Below, piece by piece: positions 2,610-25,496 of a stretch of 64,000 nucleotides of DNA. Numbering within the stretch: the stretch's first letter is position 1; every line of letters begins with the position of its first letter. The notes under the pieces were generated by a model. That model was not told the DNA's origin. It saw nothing but the letters and a program-made list of their open reading frames with translations, and made no database searches. Source of the stretch: Alphaproteobacteria bacterium (lineage in GTDB: Bacteria > Pseudomonadota > Alphaproteobacteria > SHVV01); the NCBI GenBank assembly GCA_965261735.1, contig OZ253470.1, positions 2,464,001 to 2,528,000 on the forward strand, written 5' to 3'. The translations under genes were made by a program, and so were the position numbers.

Positions 2610-4118
2610 GTGGCGCTCGACGCAACCCGCAGCGACCTTCGGGTCGGCATCGTCGGTGGCGGAGCCATGGGGCGCGGCATAGCCCAGGTCGCCATCGCGG
2701 GCGGCATCGCGACGCTGATCCACGACAGTGCCCCCGGTGTCACCGAAGCGGCGCGCGACTTCATCGCACGCATGTTGCGCCGCCAGGCCGAAAAGGGGGC
2801 GATGTCCGGCGACGATGTGGAGGCGGCTTTGGCGCGGCTCGGTATCGCCGCACACCTCGACGATTTGGCCGCGTGCGACGTCGTCGTCGAGGCGGTGGTC
2901 GAGGACCTCGAGGCCAAGCGCACTCTGTTTCGTGAACTCGAACGTATCGTGGGCGCGGAGGCGGTGCTCGCGTCCAACACCTCGTCGCTCCGCATCGCCG
3001 CCATCGCCGCCGCCTGCGAGCATCGCCGCCGCGTCGCCGGCATGCACTTCTTCAATCCGGTCCCGTTGATGAAGCTGGTCGAGATCGTCAGGGCGCCCGA
3101 CACCGACCCGGCGGTGGTCGAGCAGCTCGCGGTACTCGGCCGGCGCATGGGGCGCACGGCGGTCGAGGTCGCGGACGGACCCGGCTTCCTCGTTAATCTC
3201 GGGGGGCGCGCCTTCGTCACCGAGGGCCTGCGCATCGCCCAGGAGCGCATCGCGCCACCCAGTGCCGTCGACGCCGTCATGCGCGATGCGTGGGGTTTTC
3301 GCATGGGACCCTTCGAACTCATGGACCTGACCGGTATCGACGTGAACTTCCCGGCCACCATGGCGATCTATGACGGCTACTTCCAGGAGCGGCGGATCGC
3401 CACCTCGCCACTCCACGAATCCCTGCACGCGTCGGGCCGCTTCGGGCGCAAGGCGGGGGCGGGCTACTACGCCTACGACAAGGGCGGAAGCAAGATCGCC
3501 GAGAGTCCCGACGCGCCGACCGACGCCGATCCGGCGCCGCTCGTATGCCTGGCCGAGCCCGACGATGCGCTGGCGGCGCTCGCCGATGCGGCCGGCGCCG
3601 AGATCGTTGGCGACGGGGGCACCGAGCCGATTCTCGCGGCACCGCTCGGCGAGGACTGCACCGCGCTGGCGGTGCGCGCCGGTATCGACCATCGCCGCCT
3701 CGTCGCCGTCGATTTGACGGGCGACCTCATGAAGCGCCTGACCGTGATGACGGCGCCGGGGGCCGACGCTGCGGTCCGCGCGCAAGTCGTCGCGCGCCTC
3801 GCCAACACCGGCGCGCCCGTCACCGCGATCGCCGATTCGCCGGGCTTCATCGGCCAGCGCATCGCCGCCATGGTCGCCAACCTCGGTTGCGAGATGGCGC
3901 AGCTCGGCATCGCCCGGCCCGACGACATCGACACCGCCATGAAGCTCGGGCTCAACTACCCGCTAGGCCCGCTCGAGTTGGCGCAATCCATGGGCCCGGC
4001 ACGCGTGCTGGCGATCCTCGAGCGTCTTCAGGCGATCACCGGCGACGACCGTTACCGCCCGAGCCAATGGCTACGGCGCCGGGCCATGCTCGGCCTGCCG
4101 ATCAGCGTTCCGGGCTGA
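2610..4118 (+). CDS. 3-hydroxyacyl-CoA dehydrogenase (PaaH-like)
   Basis: GIVGGGAMGRGIAQ, EAVVEDLEAK, LASNTSS, GMHFFNP; duplicated C-terminal domain; GTG at 2610 after GAGGGGAG. Confidence 0.9.
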   Translation: MALDATRSDLRVGIVGGGAMGRGIAQVAIAGGIATLIHDSAPGVTEAARDFIARMLRRQAEKGAMSGDDVEAALARLGIAAHLDDLAACDVVVEAVVEDLEAKRTLFRELERIVGAEAVLASNTSSLRIAAIAAACEHRRRVAGMHFFNPVPLMKLVEIVRAPDTDPAVVEQLAVLGRRMGRTAVEVADGPGFLVNLGGRAFVTEGLRIAQERIAPPSAVDAVMRDAWGFRMGPFELMDLTGIDVNFPATMAIYDGYFQERRIATSPLHESLHASGRFGRKAGAGYYAYDKGGSKIAESPDAPTDADPAPLVCLAEPDDALAALADAAGAEIVGDGGTEPILAAPLGEDCTALAVRAGIDHRRLVAVDLTGDLMKRLTVMTAPGADAAVRAQVVARLANTGAPVTAIADSPGFIGQRIAAMVANLGCEMAQLGIARPDDIDTAMKLGLNYPLGPLELAQSMGPARVLAILERLQAITGDDRYRPSQWLRRRAMLGLPISVPG

Positions 4119-19777: not shown

Positions 19778-20668
19778 GAGCCCGCCTCCCCGCTACGCGA
19801 TTGTTGCCGATGGCGCGCCGGCAAGGCAAGCCGCATCGCCGGGCCAGCGCCGCGTGCTCAACGACGGATTGGCACCGCCTATGCCGCGGAGATCGTCAGC
19901 CCACGCCTTGGACGAATTCGGGAGAGCTCAGCCGTCGGCTACGGCCTTTAGCACTGCCGCTACCTCGCTCGGCGGCAGGCCCGCAGGGGCCTCGCTAGAG
20001 ACGGCGAGGAGGCGCGCCGGCAACTGATTGCCGCGGACCTGCGACCACGCGCGACCGAGCCGGAGTTCGGCAGGAGAAGGCACGACATCGACACCCAGTG
20101 CGAGCGCAACATAGAGGTGCCGGACCCGTTTGCTCTCCCTTAGCAGCACCTTAGTGTGTCGGACGTGGAAACATTCATTGTCCGTGCACGCTTTGAGCGC
20201 CTGATTGGTTGCCGGCATCCAGGCGCCATCGCCGGTCAGATTGACGCTGCCACCAGTGACCTTATCGCGCCGCCCGGTGGCTGTGGCGAGAAAGACATCG
20301 ATGACGCCGAGCGGGCCGCTGTACGACGCCAAGGTCGAGGAGGCGGCGCCGTGCGCGGTAGGTGCCCAATCCGTGTCATGAGGGTACCGCTGCCATCCCG
20401 CGAGGTTCGCCGGGAGAAGCGCGCTCACGGTGGCTTCCGCGACCGGCGGTTGGTCGTCGAGTACGTAAGGAGCCATCGCCGGTAGAGCTGCCGCGAGCAG
20501 CGCGTAAACCACGACCTGTGGTCGTCCTCTGCCGAGCCCCCGCCTAAGGCGCTGTGGCGTCTCGGCGCTTCTTTCCGGCTTCAACACTGCGACAAGCGCC
20601 ATCAACAGAAGAATGGTCGCCGCAAGTGCGGCCCATTGGAAATAGCTGTGAGTGAGTTCGAGCTGTGT

Positions 20669-22062
20669 GGTTGTGTCTCGAAAGTGGTGGAAATTGGTTT
20701 TGGCGCCTCTCCGAGCGGGTTGAGTTTTGCGGCGGTCAGGCTGCGCGGTCAAGGGTTTCGTCGGCGATTAGCTGATCGAGGGTTTCCCATCCATCGACTT
20801 TGCGCATCTGGATTTGGCCGGAAGCGAGGAGTGCCCAGAGGAGCATCGGCACTGTTTCGGGACACGGCAGCACGGTCTGTGTTTTGATCCGGCGCTTGAA
20901 CTCCTCGTTGAGACGCTCAATGGCGTTGGTCGTTCGGGCTGATTTCCATTGGCTCTTGGACAGGCGCGTGAAGGTAAAGAGCTTGTCGCCCGCTTCTGCG
21001 AGGCTGTCCGCGACGGCCCTGCATTTCAGCCGCCACTTGCGGACAAACGCCTTGCGGCGGGTTTCCACCTCGGAGGCAGTGTCGGCATAGATCATATCGC
21101 GGTAATCTTCGCTCAGCTCGTCATGCATGTGTTTGGGAGCATGACCCAGAAGGTTGCGGTGCTTGTGCACGGTGCAGCGTTGAACGGGAAGGTCATCGCC
21201 CCAAAGCGCCGACAGAGCCGCCTCCAGTCCCGGCGCGCCATCGACGATGACAAACCCGGGCCGTTTCAGTCCACGCGCATCAAGGTCGTCGAGGAACTGG
21301 CGCCACGCCGCCTGGCTTTCTCCGCCCATATTCCCGATCGAAAGCAAGACCTTCTGGCCATCCCGGCGCACCCCTATAGCCGCGAGAACCGAGATGTTGG
21401 TGGCCTTGCGGTCCAGTCGGGTCTTGATCACAGTGCCGTCAAGGATCAGCCGAACGATATCCTCATCCGCGAGGCCACGGCTGCACCAGGCGTCCCAATC
21501 GACCTTCACCTTGCGCCACGCCCGGCTCACAACGTCCTTGCTCACAGCACCCCGGAAGAGCCCGAACAGCGCGCGTTTCACCCGCCGCGTGTTGGTTCCG
21601 GACAGATACACCGAAGCGATCAGCGCCTCGGCCTTTCTGGTCAGCCGCTGGTAGCGCGGCAGCGCCCGCGAACGCCATTCCGACGCCCGACCGTCTTCCT
21701 CAACGATCCGCGCACGCGGCACGCTCACCCTCTCGGTCCCGAATGTCCCCGTCAGTTGCCGCTCCCGGTGCCCGTTCCGATACCCTTGCCGAAGCGCGTC
21801 CTCTCGACCGTATCGGCAGCGCCCGAGAAACTGCGCAAGTTCCTCCTCAAAAACGGCCTCGATCGTGGATCTGATGTTCTCCCGCAGCCGGTCCTCGAGC
21901 GGATCATAGCCGGCGTCATTGGCCAGTAGCGAAAGCGCGGAAGTCTCGGTAGTGTTCTTCATGGCGTGATCTCCTTGGCGGTGCTAGCCGCCGATTGGGT
22001 GGTTGTCTTGTCACCCGGAGATTACGCCATCCTCAAATTTCCACCACTTTCGAGACACAGCC
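20669..22062 (-). mobile_element. IS256-family insertion sequence, intact
   Basis: 27-bp inverted ends GG(T/C)TGTGTCTCGAAAGTGGTGGAAATT; 9-bp duplication GAGCTGTGT at 20660-20668 and 22063-22071. Confidence 0.96.
20736..21962 (-). CDS. IS256-family transposase
   Basis: GYRNGHRER, LILDG, IVDGAPGL, QRCTVHK, TTNAIERLNEEFKRR. Confidence 0.96.
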   Translation of the reverse strand: MKNTTETSALSLLANDAGYDPLEDRLRENIRSTIEAVFEEELAQFLGRCRYGREDALRQGYRNGHRERQLTGTFGTERVSVPRARIVEEDGRASEWRSRALPRYQRLTRKAEALIASVYLSGTNTRRVKRALFGLFRGAVSKDVVSRAWRKVKVDWDAWCSRGLADEDIVRLILDGTVIKTRLDRKATNISVLAAIGVRRDGQKVLLSIGNMGGESQAAWRQFLDDLDARGLKRPGFVIVDGAPGLEAALSALWGDDLPVQRCTVHKHRNLLGHAPKHMHDELSEDYRDMIYADTASEVETRRKAFVRKWRLKCRAVADSLAEAGDKLFTFTRLSKSQWKSARTTNAIERLNEEFKRRIKTQTVLPCPETVPMLLWALLASGQIQMRKVDGWETLDQLIADETLDRAA

Positions 22063-22835
22063 GAGCTGTGTTCCGTGGACATAGTCGGTCGCAACGATTG
22101 CCACGACCCGTATGGCGTTCGCCAAAATGCCGAGGACGCCACCGGCGAGGGTAAGCGCGATGATTCGGCCCTCGCTGCGATAGAGGAGTAGCGCGAACGT
22201 GAGGCCGAGGAACAGGCCAACAAGAACGAACGGCAGACCCGCACAGGAATCCACGACGACGTAGCGTTGCCCGTCGAAGTAAAGCGAGAAGCCCTCTCTC
22301 GCGAACGGGAGCCCCGACACGTACGCGAACCCTTCAATGAAGGCGACGGTCAGCCTCCGGAGCGGGAGGAGAAGGAATTCTCCGGTCGGGATCACGAACG
22401 CCAGCAGCGCCAGGAAGGGCAAGAGACGCCGGAACACCTGCCATCCGACGGCGGCCATGACGATCGCGGCAACGGACCCAACGAGCGCAACCTGGCGCCC
22501 TTCCGAGACGTTCAACACGTCGGCGGCGAGCCAGAGAAGGGCAGCCAACGTCGCTGCCGCGACGCCAATCAGGTTTGCCGCGGGCGACGTCGCGGCCAGG
22601 CGCCTCCGGCTGTACCACAGCACACAGCCGAGCGTCGGCAGGACGGCCCAACCGTACTGGTAGGTGGTACTGCTGGCCCACGTTCCGCCGATCTCGATGA
22701 CCGTGGGGGCATGAGCGCCGAGCACGCCAGCGATGCCGAGGGTGACGGCGACCAACGCCGGAAACCAGGGATGCCGCACGAGTGAGCGTGCGTCCCAGCC
22801 GGCGAGCACGGCGCCATCGTGGCGCGCGGCGATAC

Positions 22836-23684
22836 TCATGATGCGATCTGTCTTCCACCGCCCGGCGCGGTGAGGGGCGCAGGCGGTCGCCCTTGTCTGG
22901 GCAAGAAGGGCAAACACAGCACCCGGTCGAGGCGGGCGGAGCGGTTGTCGCGAAAGGCCTCGAGGCCCAGGACTCGCGCACGATCGGCGTTCTCGTTCGA
23001 GCCGCAATACGTTTCGAACATCCGGTCCCACAGCGAAAGCACGATGCCAAAGTTGCTATCGGTTTCGCGCTGTTCTGCGGAATGGTGAACCAGGTGGACG
23101 GCGGGCGTTATCAGCGCCGTCCGGAGCGCTCGGTCAAGCGCGTCCGGTAGTCGGATGTTGGCGTGGGTCAAAACGGAAAATACGCCGGCAATCAGCATGT
23201 ACACCCCAACCGCCACGGGCGGGACGCCGCCCACGAAGACCACCAACAGAAAGCCGCCCGCGCCCACCAGGATCTCGAGCGGATGGTGGCGTTCCGACGT
23301 CGTGAAATCGACATCAACGTCGGCGTGGTGAACCACATGGAATCGCCAGAGGATCGGGACCACATGTAACAACCTGTGCTCAGCGTACTTCCAGACGTCG
23401 AGCAACAGTACGCCGAGGACGATCGTCACCGCCGCCGGTAGCGAGCCGACCGACAGGAGACCGAATCCCTCGTGCGCCGCCGCGTACGCCACCGCAAGCC
23501 CCGAGACCGGCACGATTAGCCGGATACAAAGCTGTCCGATCAGAAAAAGCCCGATGTTGGTGAGCCAGCGTCGGCCCAGGCTTATCGTCGACTGGCGCCA
23601 CGGGGCCACGGTCTCTGCGACCGCGAACGTCACGATAGCGCCGTAGAATGCCAGCATGGCAAGCAACGTCAGCACTTCGGCCAT
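22836..23684 (-). CDS. Sterol desaturase/fatty-acid hydroxylase family membrane protein
   Basis: His boxes HRLLH, HVVHH, HAN, HLVHHS; SNFGIVLSLWDRMF; stop overlaps the exosortase ATG. Confidence 0.92.
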   Translation of the reverse strand: MAEVLTLLAMLAFYGAIVTFAVAETVAPWRQSTISLGRRWLTNIGLFLIGQLCIRLIVPVSGLAVAYAAAHEGFGLLSVGSLPAAVTIVLGVLLLDVWKYAEHRLLHVVPILWRFHVVHHADVDVDFTTSERHHPLEILVGAGGFLLVVFVGGVPPVAVGVYMLIAGVFSVLTHANIRLPDALDRALRTALITPAVHLVHHSAEQRETDSNFGIVLSLWDRMFETYCGSNENADRARVLGLEAFRDNRSARLDRVLCLPFLPRQGRPPAPLTAPGGGRQIAS

Positions 23685-23764
23685 CGCGCCCTCGTGACCC
23701 CCCTACGAAGGACGAATACCGCTTTTGTGAGCGCTATCGTGCCTCGGATGCGGAGCTAGCCGAA

Positions 23765-23972
23765 CTACCGTTTGCGGCGAATGAGCCAAGCCCCGCCAAT
23801 GACGCTTGCAGCGACCAGGGCGATGAGACCGCCTCCCGCAATTGGCAGCGACGTACCGAGGGGGGGCGCTGAGCGACTGACCCAGCGGGACTGCGTTGCC
23901 GGCCAAGGCGGCCGATATCGTGGTCGCGAGCACGGCCGCGGCCGATCCGCATGAAACGACGAAGCGATGCAT
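23765..23972 (-). pseudogene. 68-aa secreted micro-protein with a C-terminal sorting signal (putative exosortase substrate), frameshifted in a C7 run
   Basis: GGAGG RBS; signal peptide ending AALA; removing one base at 23860-23866 joins it to PLGTSLPIAGGGLIALVAASVIGGAWLIRRKR-stop. Confidence 0.75.
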
Positions 23973-24138
23973 CTTGGACCTCCATCTTCTCGCTGCTTGA
24001 GTGCCTTTGCACTCGTACCCGGTTTGCTTAGCATGGCCGTGACGTGGCGTATGTGATGGGCGTTACACCGCGCCCGGGCCGGAGGACGGCGAGACGGCGG
24101 CCACAATGGGCCGATAGGGCAGCCGTACAGCGCCCGCC

Positions 24139-24699: not shown

Positions 24700-24761
24700 C
24701 CGCGTGGCGCTACTAAACATGCCATTGTTAGGTAGCGTAAACGATGAATTGGGGGATTCAA

Positions 24762-25001
24762 ATGCCAGATTGGCTGGATCGGATTAAGAGGGGCGTCGGC
24801 TCGTTGACCGAGCTGGTGCTCTTGTTGGCTGCCTTGGCGATTGTGTTCCAGGTGTTGATCGGCCAAGGGAACATGTGGATCTTTGCCGACGTGATCGGGC
24901 ACCTAATGGACATCATCACCCAGATTGGTGATCGAGGCATCGTTGGCTTGATCGCGGTTGCCGTCGTGCTGTGGCTATTCAGCAGACGAACCATGTCCTA
25001 A
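24762..25001 (+). CDS. Small membrane protein, paralogue 1
   Basis: MPDWL..QVLIG..NMW..GIVGLIAVAVVLWLF; aligns end to end with 25257-25496. Confidence 0.8.
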   Translation: MPDWLDRIKRGVGSLTELVLLLAALAIVFQVLIGQGNMWIFADVIGHLMDIITQIGDRGIVGLIAVAVVLWLFSRRTMS

Positions 25002-25256: not shown

Positions 25257-25496
25257 ATGCCTGACTGGCTCGGCGGGTTTAGGAAAGGGATCGGTTGGAC
25301 GATCGAGATCATCGTTTTGGTGGTGGCTCTCATCGTCGTCCTTCAGATTCTCATCGGCCCGGAAAACATGTGGGTGCTCGCACCCGTCGTCACCAACCTC
25401 ATCGACTTGTTCAACCAGCTCGGCGGAGCCGGTGTGGTCGGCTTGATCGCACTCGCCGCCGTGATCTGGGCCTTCGGTCGGCGGCCCGCAAGCTAA
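25257..25496 (+). CDS. Small membrane protein, paralogue 2
   Basis: MPDWL..QILIG..NMW..GVVGLIALAAVIWAF; GGGAG RBS. Confidence 0.8.
   Translation: MPDWLGGFRKGIGWTIEIIVLVVALIVVLQILIGPENMWVLAPVVTNLIDLFNQLGGAGVVGLIALAAVIWAFGRRPAS

What the first reader, a model, noticed from the sequence alone, without database searches (positions are those of the whole stretch)
19928..23972. Exosortase + lipid desaturase + 68-aa micro-substrate with an unfamiliar sorting signal
Seen: three co-oriented genes. The first is missed by the ORF track. Once one base is removed it reads MHRFVVSCGSAAAVLATTISAALA-GNAVPLGQSLSAPLGTSLPIAGGGLIALVAASVIGGAWLIRRKR: signal peptide, about 17-19 residues with a PLG(Q/T)SL repeat, a TM helix and a basic tail. 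Next is a His-box desaturase, whose stop overlaps the ATG of an exosortase retaining Cys/Arg/His. Known: exosortases process motif+TM+basic tails, and small dedicated substrates exist (VPEID-CTERM with XrtE). I do not recognise the LPIAGGG motif or the coupling to a desaturase. Inference: a dedicated unit making a short membrane- or lipid-anchored peptide, with the desaturase tailoring the lipid.
Basis: partly seen in the sequence, partly recalled or inferred. Interest (0 to 1): 0.8.

Follow-up and report, generated by a model that had tools for sequence, protein, structure and literature searches.

The report
Exosortase, lipid hydroxylase and micro-peptide cassette
A small three-gene unit (a tiny secreted peptide with an unnamed sorting tail, a membrane di-iron hydroxylase, and an exosortase) recurs in many proteobacteria, sometimes with the two enzymes fused; in this genome it is broken by a mobile element and a frameshift.

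Summary
On the minus strand lie a 68-aa peptide gene (frameshifted in a C7 run), an intact FA_hydroxylase-superfamily gene, and an exosortase-EpsI gene split by a 1395-bp IS256-family element. Near-identical DNA in three other public runs carries the IS-free joint and one C fewer, so intact alleles exist.

The trio is a conserved unit. All 8 related genome loci and 3 metagenome loci have hydroxylase, exosortase and an upstream peptide. Two further loci end too early to show the exosortase. In one clade the two enzymes form a single ORF, and 120 of 120 listed database clusters carry both domains. Hydroxylase and exosortase each form a separate branch from stand-alone relatives and from true XrtA.

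The peptides are a signal peptide, in-register x-x-[LV]-G tetrads, [LV]-P-[IVF]-x-x-G-G, a TM helix and a basic tail. No NCBIfam or Pfam model reaches its cut-off for peptide or enzyme subfamily.

Each cassette genome has one peptide gene. However, this genome and its nearest relative have no other exosortase yet hold 9-18 PEP-CTERM proteins. Substrate status, lipid attachment and the hydroxylase's target are inferred, not shown. I rate it a new variant of a known kind.

The parts
23765..23972 (-). Micro-peptide gene, frameshifted. It encodes a signal peptide, x-x-L-G/S tetrads, LPIAGGG, a TM helix and RRKR. The extra C lies in the run at 23860-23866.
   Evidence: Intact 68-aa P0011. One base fewer at 23860 in runs X5, X7 and X8. 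The peptide family profile hits both halves.
22836..23684 (-). Intact 282-aa di-iron FA_hydroxylase-superfamily membrane enzyme. Its stop overlaps the exosortase start.
   Evidence: PF04116 at 101.6 bits. OlsE model at 69.5 bits against a cut-off of 475. His boxes invariant. Falls in the cassette clade, SH-aLRT 99.
22063..22839 (-). Exosortase, N-terminal 259 codons (Cys and Arg regions), ending at the IS insertion. 22063-22070 is one copy of the target duplication.
   Evidence: PF09721 at 129.2 bits. XrtA model at 149.5 bits against a cut-off of 208. Aligned to intact P0001.
20668..22062 (-). IS256-family insertion sequence (1395 bp) with transposase at 21962..20736, imperfect terminal inverted repeats and the 8-bp duplication GAGCTGTG at 20660-20667 and 22063-22070.
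   Evidence: NF033543 at 270.2 bits against a cut-off of 150. Ends read. IS-free joint in runs X5, X7 and X8. 38 near-full copies in the genome.
19928..20667 (-). Exosortase C-terminal part: the His region, the last TM helices and the EpsI/DUF3485 domain. 20660-20667 is the second copy of the target duplication.
   Evidence: PF11984 at 36.3 bits. Aligned to P0001 residues about 257-502.

Best explanation
This is a decayed copy of a conserved, so far unnamed exosortase system made of three parts.

(a) A 62-87-aa pre-peptide. It has a Sec signal peptide ending A-x-A|G. Its mature part consists only of in-register x-x-[LV]-G tetrads, i.e. a GxxxG zipper. It ends in a tripartite sorting tail: [LV]-P-[IVF]-x-x-G-G, a TM helix and a basic cluster.
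(b) A membrane di-iron hydroxylase of the FA_hydroxylase superfamily.
(c) An XrtA-like exosortase fused to an EpsI domain.

Proposed working, all inferred:
1. The peptide is exported and held in the inner membrane by its C-terminal helix.
2. The exosortase (Cys/Arg/His) cuts at or next to the LP motif. By analogy with archaeosortase A, it passes the roughly 15-45-residue peptide to a membrane acceptor.
3. The hydroxylase, always co-translated with or fused to the exosortase, prepares or modifies that lipid or amino-lipid partner.

In this strain the system is off. An IS256-family element splits the exosortase between its Arg and His, and a +1 C frameshifts the peptide. Sister strains carry the intact form.
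For: Shown:
- Synteny. 8 of 8 genome loci found with the exosortase profile have the hydroxylase directly upstream and a small ORF with the same architecture upstream of that.
- Reverse scan. Among 80 metagenome loci found with the hydroxylase profile, 3 have an exosortase, and all 3 also have the peptide. Two more have the peptide but under 400 bases of room downstream.
- Fusion. Single ORFs of 760-797 aa carry both enzyme domains in L034, L035, L037, L042 and L052. In the protein database, 226 clusters match at E<=1e-20, and all 120 listed carry PF04116 and PF09721.
- Coupling. The unfused loci have overlapping stop and start codons: ATGA, GTGA or TGATG.
- Separate clades. The 14 cassette hydroxylases form one split from 75 stand-alone relatives (SH-aLRT 99). 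The 16 cassette-type exosortase rows form one split from 10 XrtA-like rows, which include the co-resident XrtAs (SH-aLRT 100).
- Peptide number. There is one strong peptide match per genome in 5 of 5 cassette genomes and in the window's genome, always beside the cassette.
- Motif. P is present in 26 of 26 tails and G at +5 in 25 of 26. In 26 of 27 peptides the tetrads run in register up to the LP.
- Intact alleles exist: P0001, P0011, and the IS-free and C6 contigs in 3 runs from other studies.
- Complex prediction. Exosortase residues 1-300 against the peptide's mature part plus tail gave 'weak support': score 0.45, best of 3 controls 0.01. The mark was reached by 116 of 157 solved complexes and 2 of 215 mismatched pairs. 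At 0.60 or under it was reached by only 18 of the 157 and by both mismatches. The runs agree in at least 47% of contacts and partner pLDDT is at least 57.
- Protein-atlas lead. The nearest named cluster is small VPEID-CTERM proteins (0.92).

From the literature (passages read):
- Exosortases and archaeosortases carry Cys/Arg/His, and ArtA is needed for C-terminal cleavage and lipid attachment (10.1101/2023.06.07.544157).
[quoted passage not shown] 2011, seen only as cited in PMC7293339).
- OlsE hydroxylates C4 of the ornithine headgroup of ornithine lipid (PMC12971839).
Against: - No experiment or read-out here shows cleavage, transfer or any lipid product.
- The peptide's status as substrate rests on synteny, architecture and a weak complex score.
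- The window's genome and G061 have no other exosortase yet hold 9 and 18 PEP-CTERM hits at E<=0.01. Five same-family genomes without an exosortase hold 3, 0, 0, 0 and 1. In these two genomes, then, the enzyme may also serve ordinary PEP-CTERM proteins and is not strictly dedicated.
- The hydroxylase family is mostly stand-alone. 75 of 80 metagenome loci lack exosortase and peptide, and 54 of those have at least 800 bases downstream. 169 of 401 sampled genomes of G065's class have a stand-alone relative (the tally includes the unpublished genomes G104 and G206). Its substrate therefore need not have anything to do with sorting.
- By established knowledge of this superfamily (recalled, not tested here), the di-iron site faces the cytoplasm, while exosortase chemistry is thought to occur at the outer face. 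Direct hand-over is not obvious.
- Both trees are quick searches with SH-aLRT only. The careful search did not finish.
- The contexts of the 226 fused clusters were not seen.
Confidence: 0.65

Rival explanations
1. This is an ordinary PEP-CTERM exosortase, a divergent XrtA. Its real clients are the PEP-CTERM proteins scattered over the genome. The small upstream protein is an accessory single-pass membrane subunit or regulator and is not cleaved.
For: XrtA is the best-scoring model (149.5-152.1 bits). The window's genome and G061 have no other exosortase but hold 9-10 and 18 PEP-CTERM tails. Exosortase-free relatives have 0-3. The tail lacks P-E-P, and the PEP-CTERM model does not hit it at E<=10.
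Against: 4 of 5 other cassette genomes carry a true XrtA (297-352 bits) beside the cassette type (132-183 bits). G064 has the cassette but 0 PEP-CTERM hits. The cassette type is a separate branch. The small protein has the full tripartite sorting architecture, with an invariant Pro abutting the helix. It always sits next to the enzyme.
Confidence: 0.2
2. The hydroxylase acts on the peptide or on the peptide-lipid conjugate, for example by hydroxylating a residue next to the membrane, rather than on a free membrane lipid. On this reading the cassette is a small ribosomal-peptide maturation unit.
For: The nearest named relative, OlsE, hydroxylates an amino-acid moiety (ornithine C4) of a lipid, not an acyl chain. 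The match covers nearly the full length, profile positions 36-290 of 293 in several homologues. The enzyme is fused to the peptide-processing enzyme.
Against: Scores against OlsE are 69-85 bits against a cut-off of 475. Of 17 stand-alone relatives examined, 6 sit beside lipid-metabolism genes: VTT/DedA in 3, PLD-like in 2, and CDP-alcohol phosphatidyltransferase with a lipase in 1. To my knowledge (recalled), no member of the superfamily is known to act on a plain peptide.
Confidence: 0.15
3. In this genome the region is only gene wreckage. The frameshift or the IS junction could be an assembly error, and the unit has no present function.
For: There are two lesions in one cassette. The genome holds 38 copies of the same IS, 37 of them at 100% identity. 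The frameshift lies in a homopolymer.
Against: Contigs of run X1 (share of words 1.00, possibly the source sample, so not independent) show the same C7 run and both IS junctions. That the copy is inactive here does not touch the conserved unit seen elsewhere. The hydroxylase gene is still intact.
Confidence: 0.85

Closest known systems
Exosortase A (XrtA) with PEP-CTERM proteins
   Same: Same enzyme family (PF09721; Cys/Arg/His). XrtA is the best-scoring subfamily model. An EpsI domain is attached. The substrate plan is tripartite: motif, TM helix, basic cluster.
   Different: It scores below the XrtA cut-off (130-183 against 208) and forms a separate branch from co-resident XrtAs. The motif is [LV]-P-[IVF]-x-x-G-G, not P-E-P. 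There is one tiny client beside the enzyme rather than many scattered proteins. It is not in an EPS locus and its flanks differ in every genome. It is always coupled or fused to a di-iron hydroxylase.
XrtE with small VPEID-CTERM proteins (recalled from Haft's work; that paper is not held in the library)
   Same: The idea of a specialised exosortase with very small dedicated clients encoded nearby. The protein-atlas features place the peptide next to VPEID-CTERM clusters (0.92).
   Different: No XrtE or VPEID-CTERM model appears among the NCBIfam hits at E<=0.1-1. The partner enzyme here is a hydroxylase.
Archaeosortase A (ArtA) with PGF-CTERM
   Same: A homologous enzyme for which C-terminal cleavage and attachment of a lipid have been shown (passages of 10.1101/2023.06.07.544157). 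It is the model for the proposed peptide-to-lipid transfer.
   Different: ArtA is archaeal and acts on large S-layer glycoproteins. It has no hydroxylase partner. No product is known for the present system.
OlsE, ornithine-lipid headgroup hydroxylase
   Same: [quoted passage not shown] It is the only NCBIfam model that aligns over most of the length.
   Different: The match is 69-85 bits against a cut-off of 475, so this is not an OlsE orthologue. The cassette enzymes are a clade of their own.
[quoted passage not shown]
   Same: A precedent for a genetic link between exosortase systems and amino-lipid chemistry.
   Different: It involves a different enzyme family. It has no fusion and no dedicated micro-peptide.

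Membership tests
Exosortase/archaeosortase family | Match to PF09721 and to the TIGR04178 signature above their cut-offs | tested here: met
   PF09721 at 129.2 bits against 25.7. TIGR04178 at 27.7 bits for the window piece and 38.0 for intact P0001, against 23.
Exosortase/archaeosortase family | Conserved Cys, Arg and His | tested here: met
   C199, R244 and H263 are invariant in alignment A2. All three are present in the window's two pieces.
Exosortase A (XrtA, TIGR03109) | Score at or above the curated cut-off of 208 bits | tested here: not met
   149.5 bits (window piece), 152.1 (P0001) and 111.7-183 for the clade. True XrtAs in the same genomes score 297-352.
Exosortase A (XrtA, TIGR03109) | Cognate clients carry PEP-CTERM (TIGR02595) | tested here: inconclusive
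   The adjacent peptide is not hit at E<=10. However, 10 PEP-CTERM tails over the cut-off lie elsewhere in this genome, whose only exosortase is this one.
XrtD/VPLPA-CTERM, XrtW, XrtV, XrtB and other named exosortase subfamilies | Score above the subfamily cut-off | tested here: not met
   XrtW at 68-84 bits against 425. XrtD at 52-64 against 400. XrtV at 49 against 313. XrtB at 39-40 against 275. The VPLPA-CTERM model does not hit the peptide.
GVDTG-CTERM sorting domain (NF058571) | Score at or above 29 bits | tested here: not met
   15.8-18.2 bits. 4 of 9 peptides match weakly, best E 0.013.
EpsI domain | Match to PF11984 / TIGR02914 | tested here: inconclusive
   PF11984 at 36.3 bits against 26.1, met. 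TIGR02914 at 25.3 and 21.3 bits against 42.8, not met for this copy; it is met in P0005 and P0006.
FA_hydroxylase superfamily (PF04116) | Pfam match above the cut-off and histidine boxes | tested here: met
   101.6 bits against 31. H103, H107, H116, H119, H120, H133, H134, H174, H200 and H201 are invariant in 9 of 9 sequences.
OlsE (NF052566) | Score at or above 475 bits | tested here: not met
   69.5 bits; homologues 77-85.
IS256 family | Transposase model above the cut-off, terminal inverted repeats and an 8-bp target duplication | tested here: met
   NF033543 at 270.2 bits against 150. Inverted repeats and the GAGCTGTG duplication read. Clean excision joint in other runs.

The most novel reading that the evidence does not exclude
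The hydroxylase-exosortase pair (or fusion) is a two-enzyme machine that makes a lipid-linked GxxxG-zipper micro-peptide. The exosortase transfers the x-x-L-G repeat peptide from its LP motif onto a lipid or amino-lipid that the hydroxylase has just hydroxylated. If so, this would be the first bacterial exosortase system in which the acceptor is genetically pinned to the enzyme. It would also give the smallest natural substrate on which exosortase chemistry could be solved.
Probability: 0.25. Interest if true: 0.85.

Novelty: new variant of a known kind. Interest (0 to 1): 0.66.

Why it matters
What exosortases attach their clients to is still unknown in bacteria. The passages read say that even a one-step transpeptidation is unproven.

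Most systems have dozens of large, glycosylated clients and sit in big EPS loci. This unit differs in three ways:
- It is self-contained, with two or three genes.
- It has a single client whose mature part is only about 15-45 residues.
- It has an obligatory, often fused, lipid-type hydroxylase.

That makes the product directly accessible to mass spectrometry, and the hydroxylase points to where the acceptor should be sought.

The three families (peptide tail, hydroxylase clade, exosortase clade) are currently annotated only generically, as 'archaeosortase/exosortase family protein', 'sterol desaturase family protein' or hypothetical. They could be given models of their own.

Tried and rejected
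- Distant exosortase homologues. The 6 loci from the 61-genome relatives search (25-33% identity, L003-L008) showed no hydroxylase within about 1.5 kb, 0 of 6. The link is therefore specific to the cassette clade.
- Conserved flanks. Pfam on 62 ORFs of the 8 genome loci shows different neighbours in every locus, so there is no further conserved partner.
- Lipobox in the signal peptide. V-V-S-C at residues 5-8 comes too early and is not conserved in homologues. Rejected.
- Promoter and terminator scan. 0 promoter-like sites, and terminator-like sites at the level of the shuffles. Uninformative.
- Base composition. No clear island signal.
- Solved structures. No PDB relative by sequence for the hydroxylase or the exosortase profile at E<=0.01.
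- Structure model and fold search. The AlphaFold2 model of a fused protein has mean pLDDT 77.1 and pTM 0.73; the exosortase part scores about 85-96 and the hydroxylase part 42-88. Its Foldseek search of the PDB gave nothing at E<=0.001, and the top rows have TM 0.03-0.12, i.e. chance. No interface could be read from that output.
- Hydroxylase-exosortase complex. The job was never run because the queue was full. The single job went to exosortase plus peptide instead.
- Class-wide search with a fused protein. Only the centre genome, 1 of 401, had the fusion, so this gave no extra loci.
- Papers not held. Craig et al. 2011 is not held, and Haft's 2012 archaeosortase/exosortase paper appears only as a citation. 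What I say of XrtE/VPEID-CTERM is recalled.
- Literature searches. 'exosortase' with 'sterol desaturase' gave 0 papers. With 'fatty acid hydroxylase' it gave 0. With 'VPEID-CTERM' it gave 0. With 'desaturase' it gave 5 papers, each with 1-5 mentions; I read one of them in passages and the two terms were unconnected. No supplements were read.


Full report
WHAT IS IN THE WINDOW

Everything lies on the minus strand.

The peptide gene starts at an ATG at 23972, preceded by GGAGG. It opens a reading frame for a clean signal peptide, MHRFVVSCGSAAAVLATTISAALA. After ...PLGQSLSAPP the frame is lost. The neighbouring frame continues ...PLGTSLPIAGGGLIALVAASVIGGAWLIRRKR and stops at 23765. The break is a run of seven C (plus-strand G, 23860-23866).

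Next comes an intact 282-aa gene, 23684..22836. It matches PF04116 (FA_hydroxylase) at 101.6 bits against a cut-off of 31. Its only NCBIfam relative of note is the ornithine-lipid hydroxylase OlsE, at 69.5 bits against a cut-off of 475.

The hydroxylase TGA overlaps the ATG of an exosortase (ATGA, 22839-22836). The exosortase runs to 22063, with PF09721 at 129.2 bits. There it enters a 1395-bp IS256-family element (20668-22062). The transposase scores 270.2 bits against a cut-off of 150. The element has imperfect terminal inverted repeats and the 8-bp duplication GAGCTGTG. The gene resumes after the element and ends at 19928 with an EpsI/DUF3485 domain (PF11984, 36.3 bits).

THE LESIONS ARE REAL, AND INTACT ALLELES EXIST

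A 502-aa database protein, P0001, is 99% identical and joins the two exosortase pieces as ...HGTQL|ELTHSYFQW. A 68-aa protein, P0011, differs from the read-through peptide by one residue. Its row shows '-' for sources.

I laid public contigs on 19800-24100. Runs X5, X7 and X8, from three other studies, each hold a contig that skips 20658->22062 (1403 bases, i.e. the IS plus one duplication copy). The same contigs lack one base at 23860. Run X1 holds all sampled words and may be the source sample, so it is not independent. It shows both IS junctions and no deletion.

The genome holds 38 near-full copies of this IS, 37 of them at 100% identity. The exosortase hit is therefore one event of a recent IS burst.

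THE TRIO IS A CONSERVED UNIT

The 'longer' protein search with the exosortase N part returned 7 proteins at E<=1e-10. With a profile of five of them, the genome collection gave 8 loci in alpha-, beta- and gammaproteobacterial MAGs. That scan works through two peptide patterns and so sees only part of the family. The results were:
- 8 of 8 loci have the hydroxylase directly upstream, at 45-72% identity.
- 8 of 8 have a 65-87-aa ORF upstream of that, with an SD-like purine-rich stretch upstream by eye, a signal peptide, a Gly/Leu-rich middle and the same tail.
- The flanking genes differ in every locus, so the unit is self-contained.

More distant exosortases from 61 relatives (25-33% identity) had no hydroxylase nearby, 0 of 6. 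None of the 7 same-family genomes has the exosortase.

THE REVERSE TEST

A hydroxylase profile found at least 596 relatives in metagenome contigs, and the best 80 were kept.
- Three of the 80 have an exosortase downstream, and all three also have the peptide.
- Two more have the peptide, but their contigs end within 400 bases.
- 75 have neither, and by my count 54 of those have at least 800 bases downstream.

In a quick ML tree, the 14 cassette-linked hydroxylases form one split from the 75 others (SH-aLRT 99; the careful search was unfinished). The label came from the neighbouring genes, not from the tree.

Stand-alone relatives are common. 169 of 401 sampled genomes of G065's class have one (the tally includes the unpublished genomes G104 and G206). 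Of 17 stand-alone loci examined, 6 sit beside lipid genes: VTT/DedA in 3, PLD-like in 2, and CDP-alcohol phosphatidyltransferase with a lipase in 1.

FUSIONS

In L034, L035, L037, L042 and L052, hydroxylase, exosortase and the C-terminal domain form one ORF of 760-797 aa. In L040 and L043 the frame runs on to the contig end.

A search with the L034 protein found 226 clusters at E<=1e-20. All 120 listed carry PF04116 and PF09721. Where a source names them, the names are generic only, including records from Polaromonas, Rhodoferax ferrireducens, Undibacterium, Pseudohaliea and Ca. Competibacter. Their contexts were not seen.

The unfused loci have overlapping stop and start codons.

The fused group forms a starred clade in the exosortase tree. 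In the hydroxylase tree it falls inside a starred clade together with L040 and L043.

A SEPARATE EXOSORTASE BRANCH

The clade scores 111.7-183 bits on the XrtA model, whose cut-off is 208. It scores below every other named subfamily cut-off as well.

In 4 of 5 cassette genomes a true XrtA (297-352 bits) is also present.

In a quick tree, 16 cassette-type rows separate from 10 XrtA-like rows (SH-aLRT 100). Four of the 16 rows (P0002, P0004, P0005, P0006) were labelled by similarity. P0004 is identical to the L030 row, and P0002 and P0006 lie close to L029 and L033. The context of P0005 was not seen.

THE PEPTIDE FAMILY

The peptide profile found 22 clusters in 5.8 billion proteins. None carries a meaningful name.

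In 26 of 27 peptides the part between the signal-peptide site (A-x-A-G) and the tail is an unbroken, in-register run of 2-10 tetrads x-x-[LVIMAF]-[G/S/P]. The last tetrad is x-x-[LV]-P. The tail reads [LV]-P-[IVFL]-[GA]-x-G-G, then the helix and a basic cluster. P is present in 26 of 26 tails and G at +5 in 25 of 26.

No NCBIfam or Pfam model reaches its cut-off on it. The best is GVDTG-CTERM at 15.8-18.2 bits against a cut-off of 29.

Each of 5 cassette genomes, and the window's genome, has exactly one strong match, beside the cassette. L037 has two tandem copies.

Protein-atlas features place the peptide next to unnamed 66-71-aa clusters and to VPEID-CTERM proteins (0.92). This is a lead only.

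The complex prediction of exosortase 1-300 with the mature peptide plus tail gave weak support:
- Score 0.45, best of 3 controls 0.01.
- The mark was reached by 116 of 157 solved complexes and 2 of 215 mismatches.
- At 0.60 or under it was reached by only 18 of the 157 and by both mismatches.
- The runs agree in at least 47% of contacts, and partner pLDDT is at least 57.

WHAT SPEAKS AGAINST A STRICTLY DEDICATED SYSTEM

The window's genome has only this exosortase. It nevertheless has 10 canonical PEP-CTERM tails over the cut-off, 9 of them at E<=0.01.

G061, the nearest cassette relative, likewise has only the cassette type and 18 PEP-CTERM hits. Five same-family genomes without an exosortase have 3, 0, 0, 0 and 1. 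In this lineage the enzyme may therefore serve PEP-CTERM proteins too, or an XrtA was lost.

G061's copy is also broken. An IS630-family element (281.8 bits) sits in the EpsI part, and the hydroxylase N-terminus is out of frame.

MECHANISM

Shown: the genetic unit, its conservation, the fusions and the architecture.

Inferred: export, cleavage at the LP motif by the Cys/Arg/His enzyme, transfer to a membrane acceptor, and a role of the hydroxylase on that acceptor or on the conjugate. The transfer step is by analogy with ArtA, for which cleavage and lipid attachment are reported in the passages read.

OlsE, the nearest named relative, hydroxylates the amino-acid headgroup of an amino-lipid. 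N-acyl amino acid synthases have been linked to exosortase loci (cited in PMC7293339). Both point towards amino-lipid chemistry, but neither is a test.

VERDICT

This is a new variant of a known kind: an unnamed exosortase subfamily with its own micro-substrate tail and an obligatory hydroxylase partner. In this strain it is present as a twice-broken copy.

Noticed in passing
window 20668-22062 and the whole genome: The IS256-family element that splits the exosortase has 38 near-full-length copies in the 5.03-Mb genome, 37 of them at 100% identity. This points to a recent IS burst. In the laid runs its word depth is 40-150 times that of the flanks.
   Followed up: partly
L029 7122-8323 (genome G061): The closest cassette relative is also broken. 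An IS630-family element (transposase 281.8 bits) sits in the EpsI part of the exosortase. The hydroxylase N-terminus is out of frame. It is a long-contig MAG, so assembly errors are possible for the frameshift.
   Followed up: partly
genome G000, e.g. C1:4245543-4246610, 1495866-1496951, 1058174-1059403: Ten canonical PEP-CTERM tails (PEP, helix, RRRR) lie in a genome whose only exosortase is the broken cassette-type one. Several sit in open frames of only 64-101 aa.
   Followed up: partly
window 24744-25001 (+) and 25257-25496 (+): Two tandem, clearly paralogous small ORFs (85 and 79 aa) encode two-helix membrane proteins just beyond the cassette. The only family hit is a weak DUF347 match, below its cut-off.
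   Followed up: no
L037 about 2800-3323: One metagenome locus carries two tandem copies of the micro-peptide gene upstream of a fused hydroxylase-exosortase. Their tails are LPLASVG... and LPIASVT....
   Followed up: no
L066, L100, L104, L084 (metagenome loci): Stand-alone relatives of the hydroxylase repeatedly sit between an ArsR-rhodanese regulator gene and a VTT/DedA(-rhodanese) membrane protein gene. This may be a separate conserved module.
   Followed up: no
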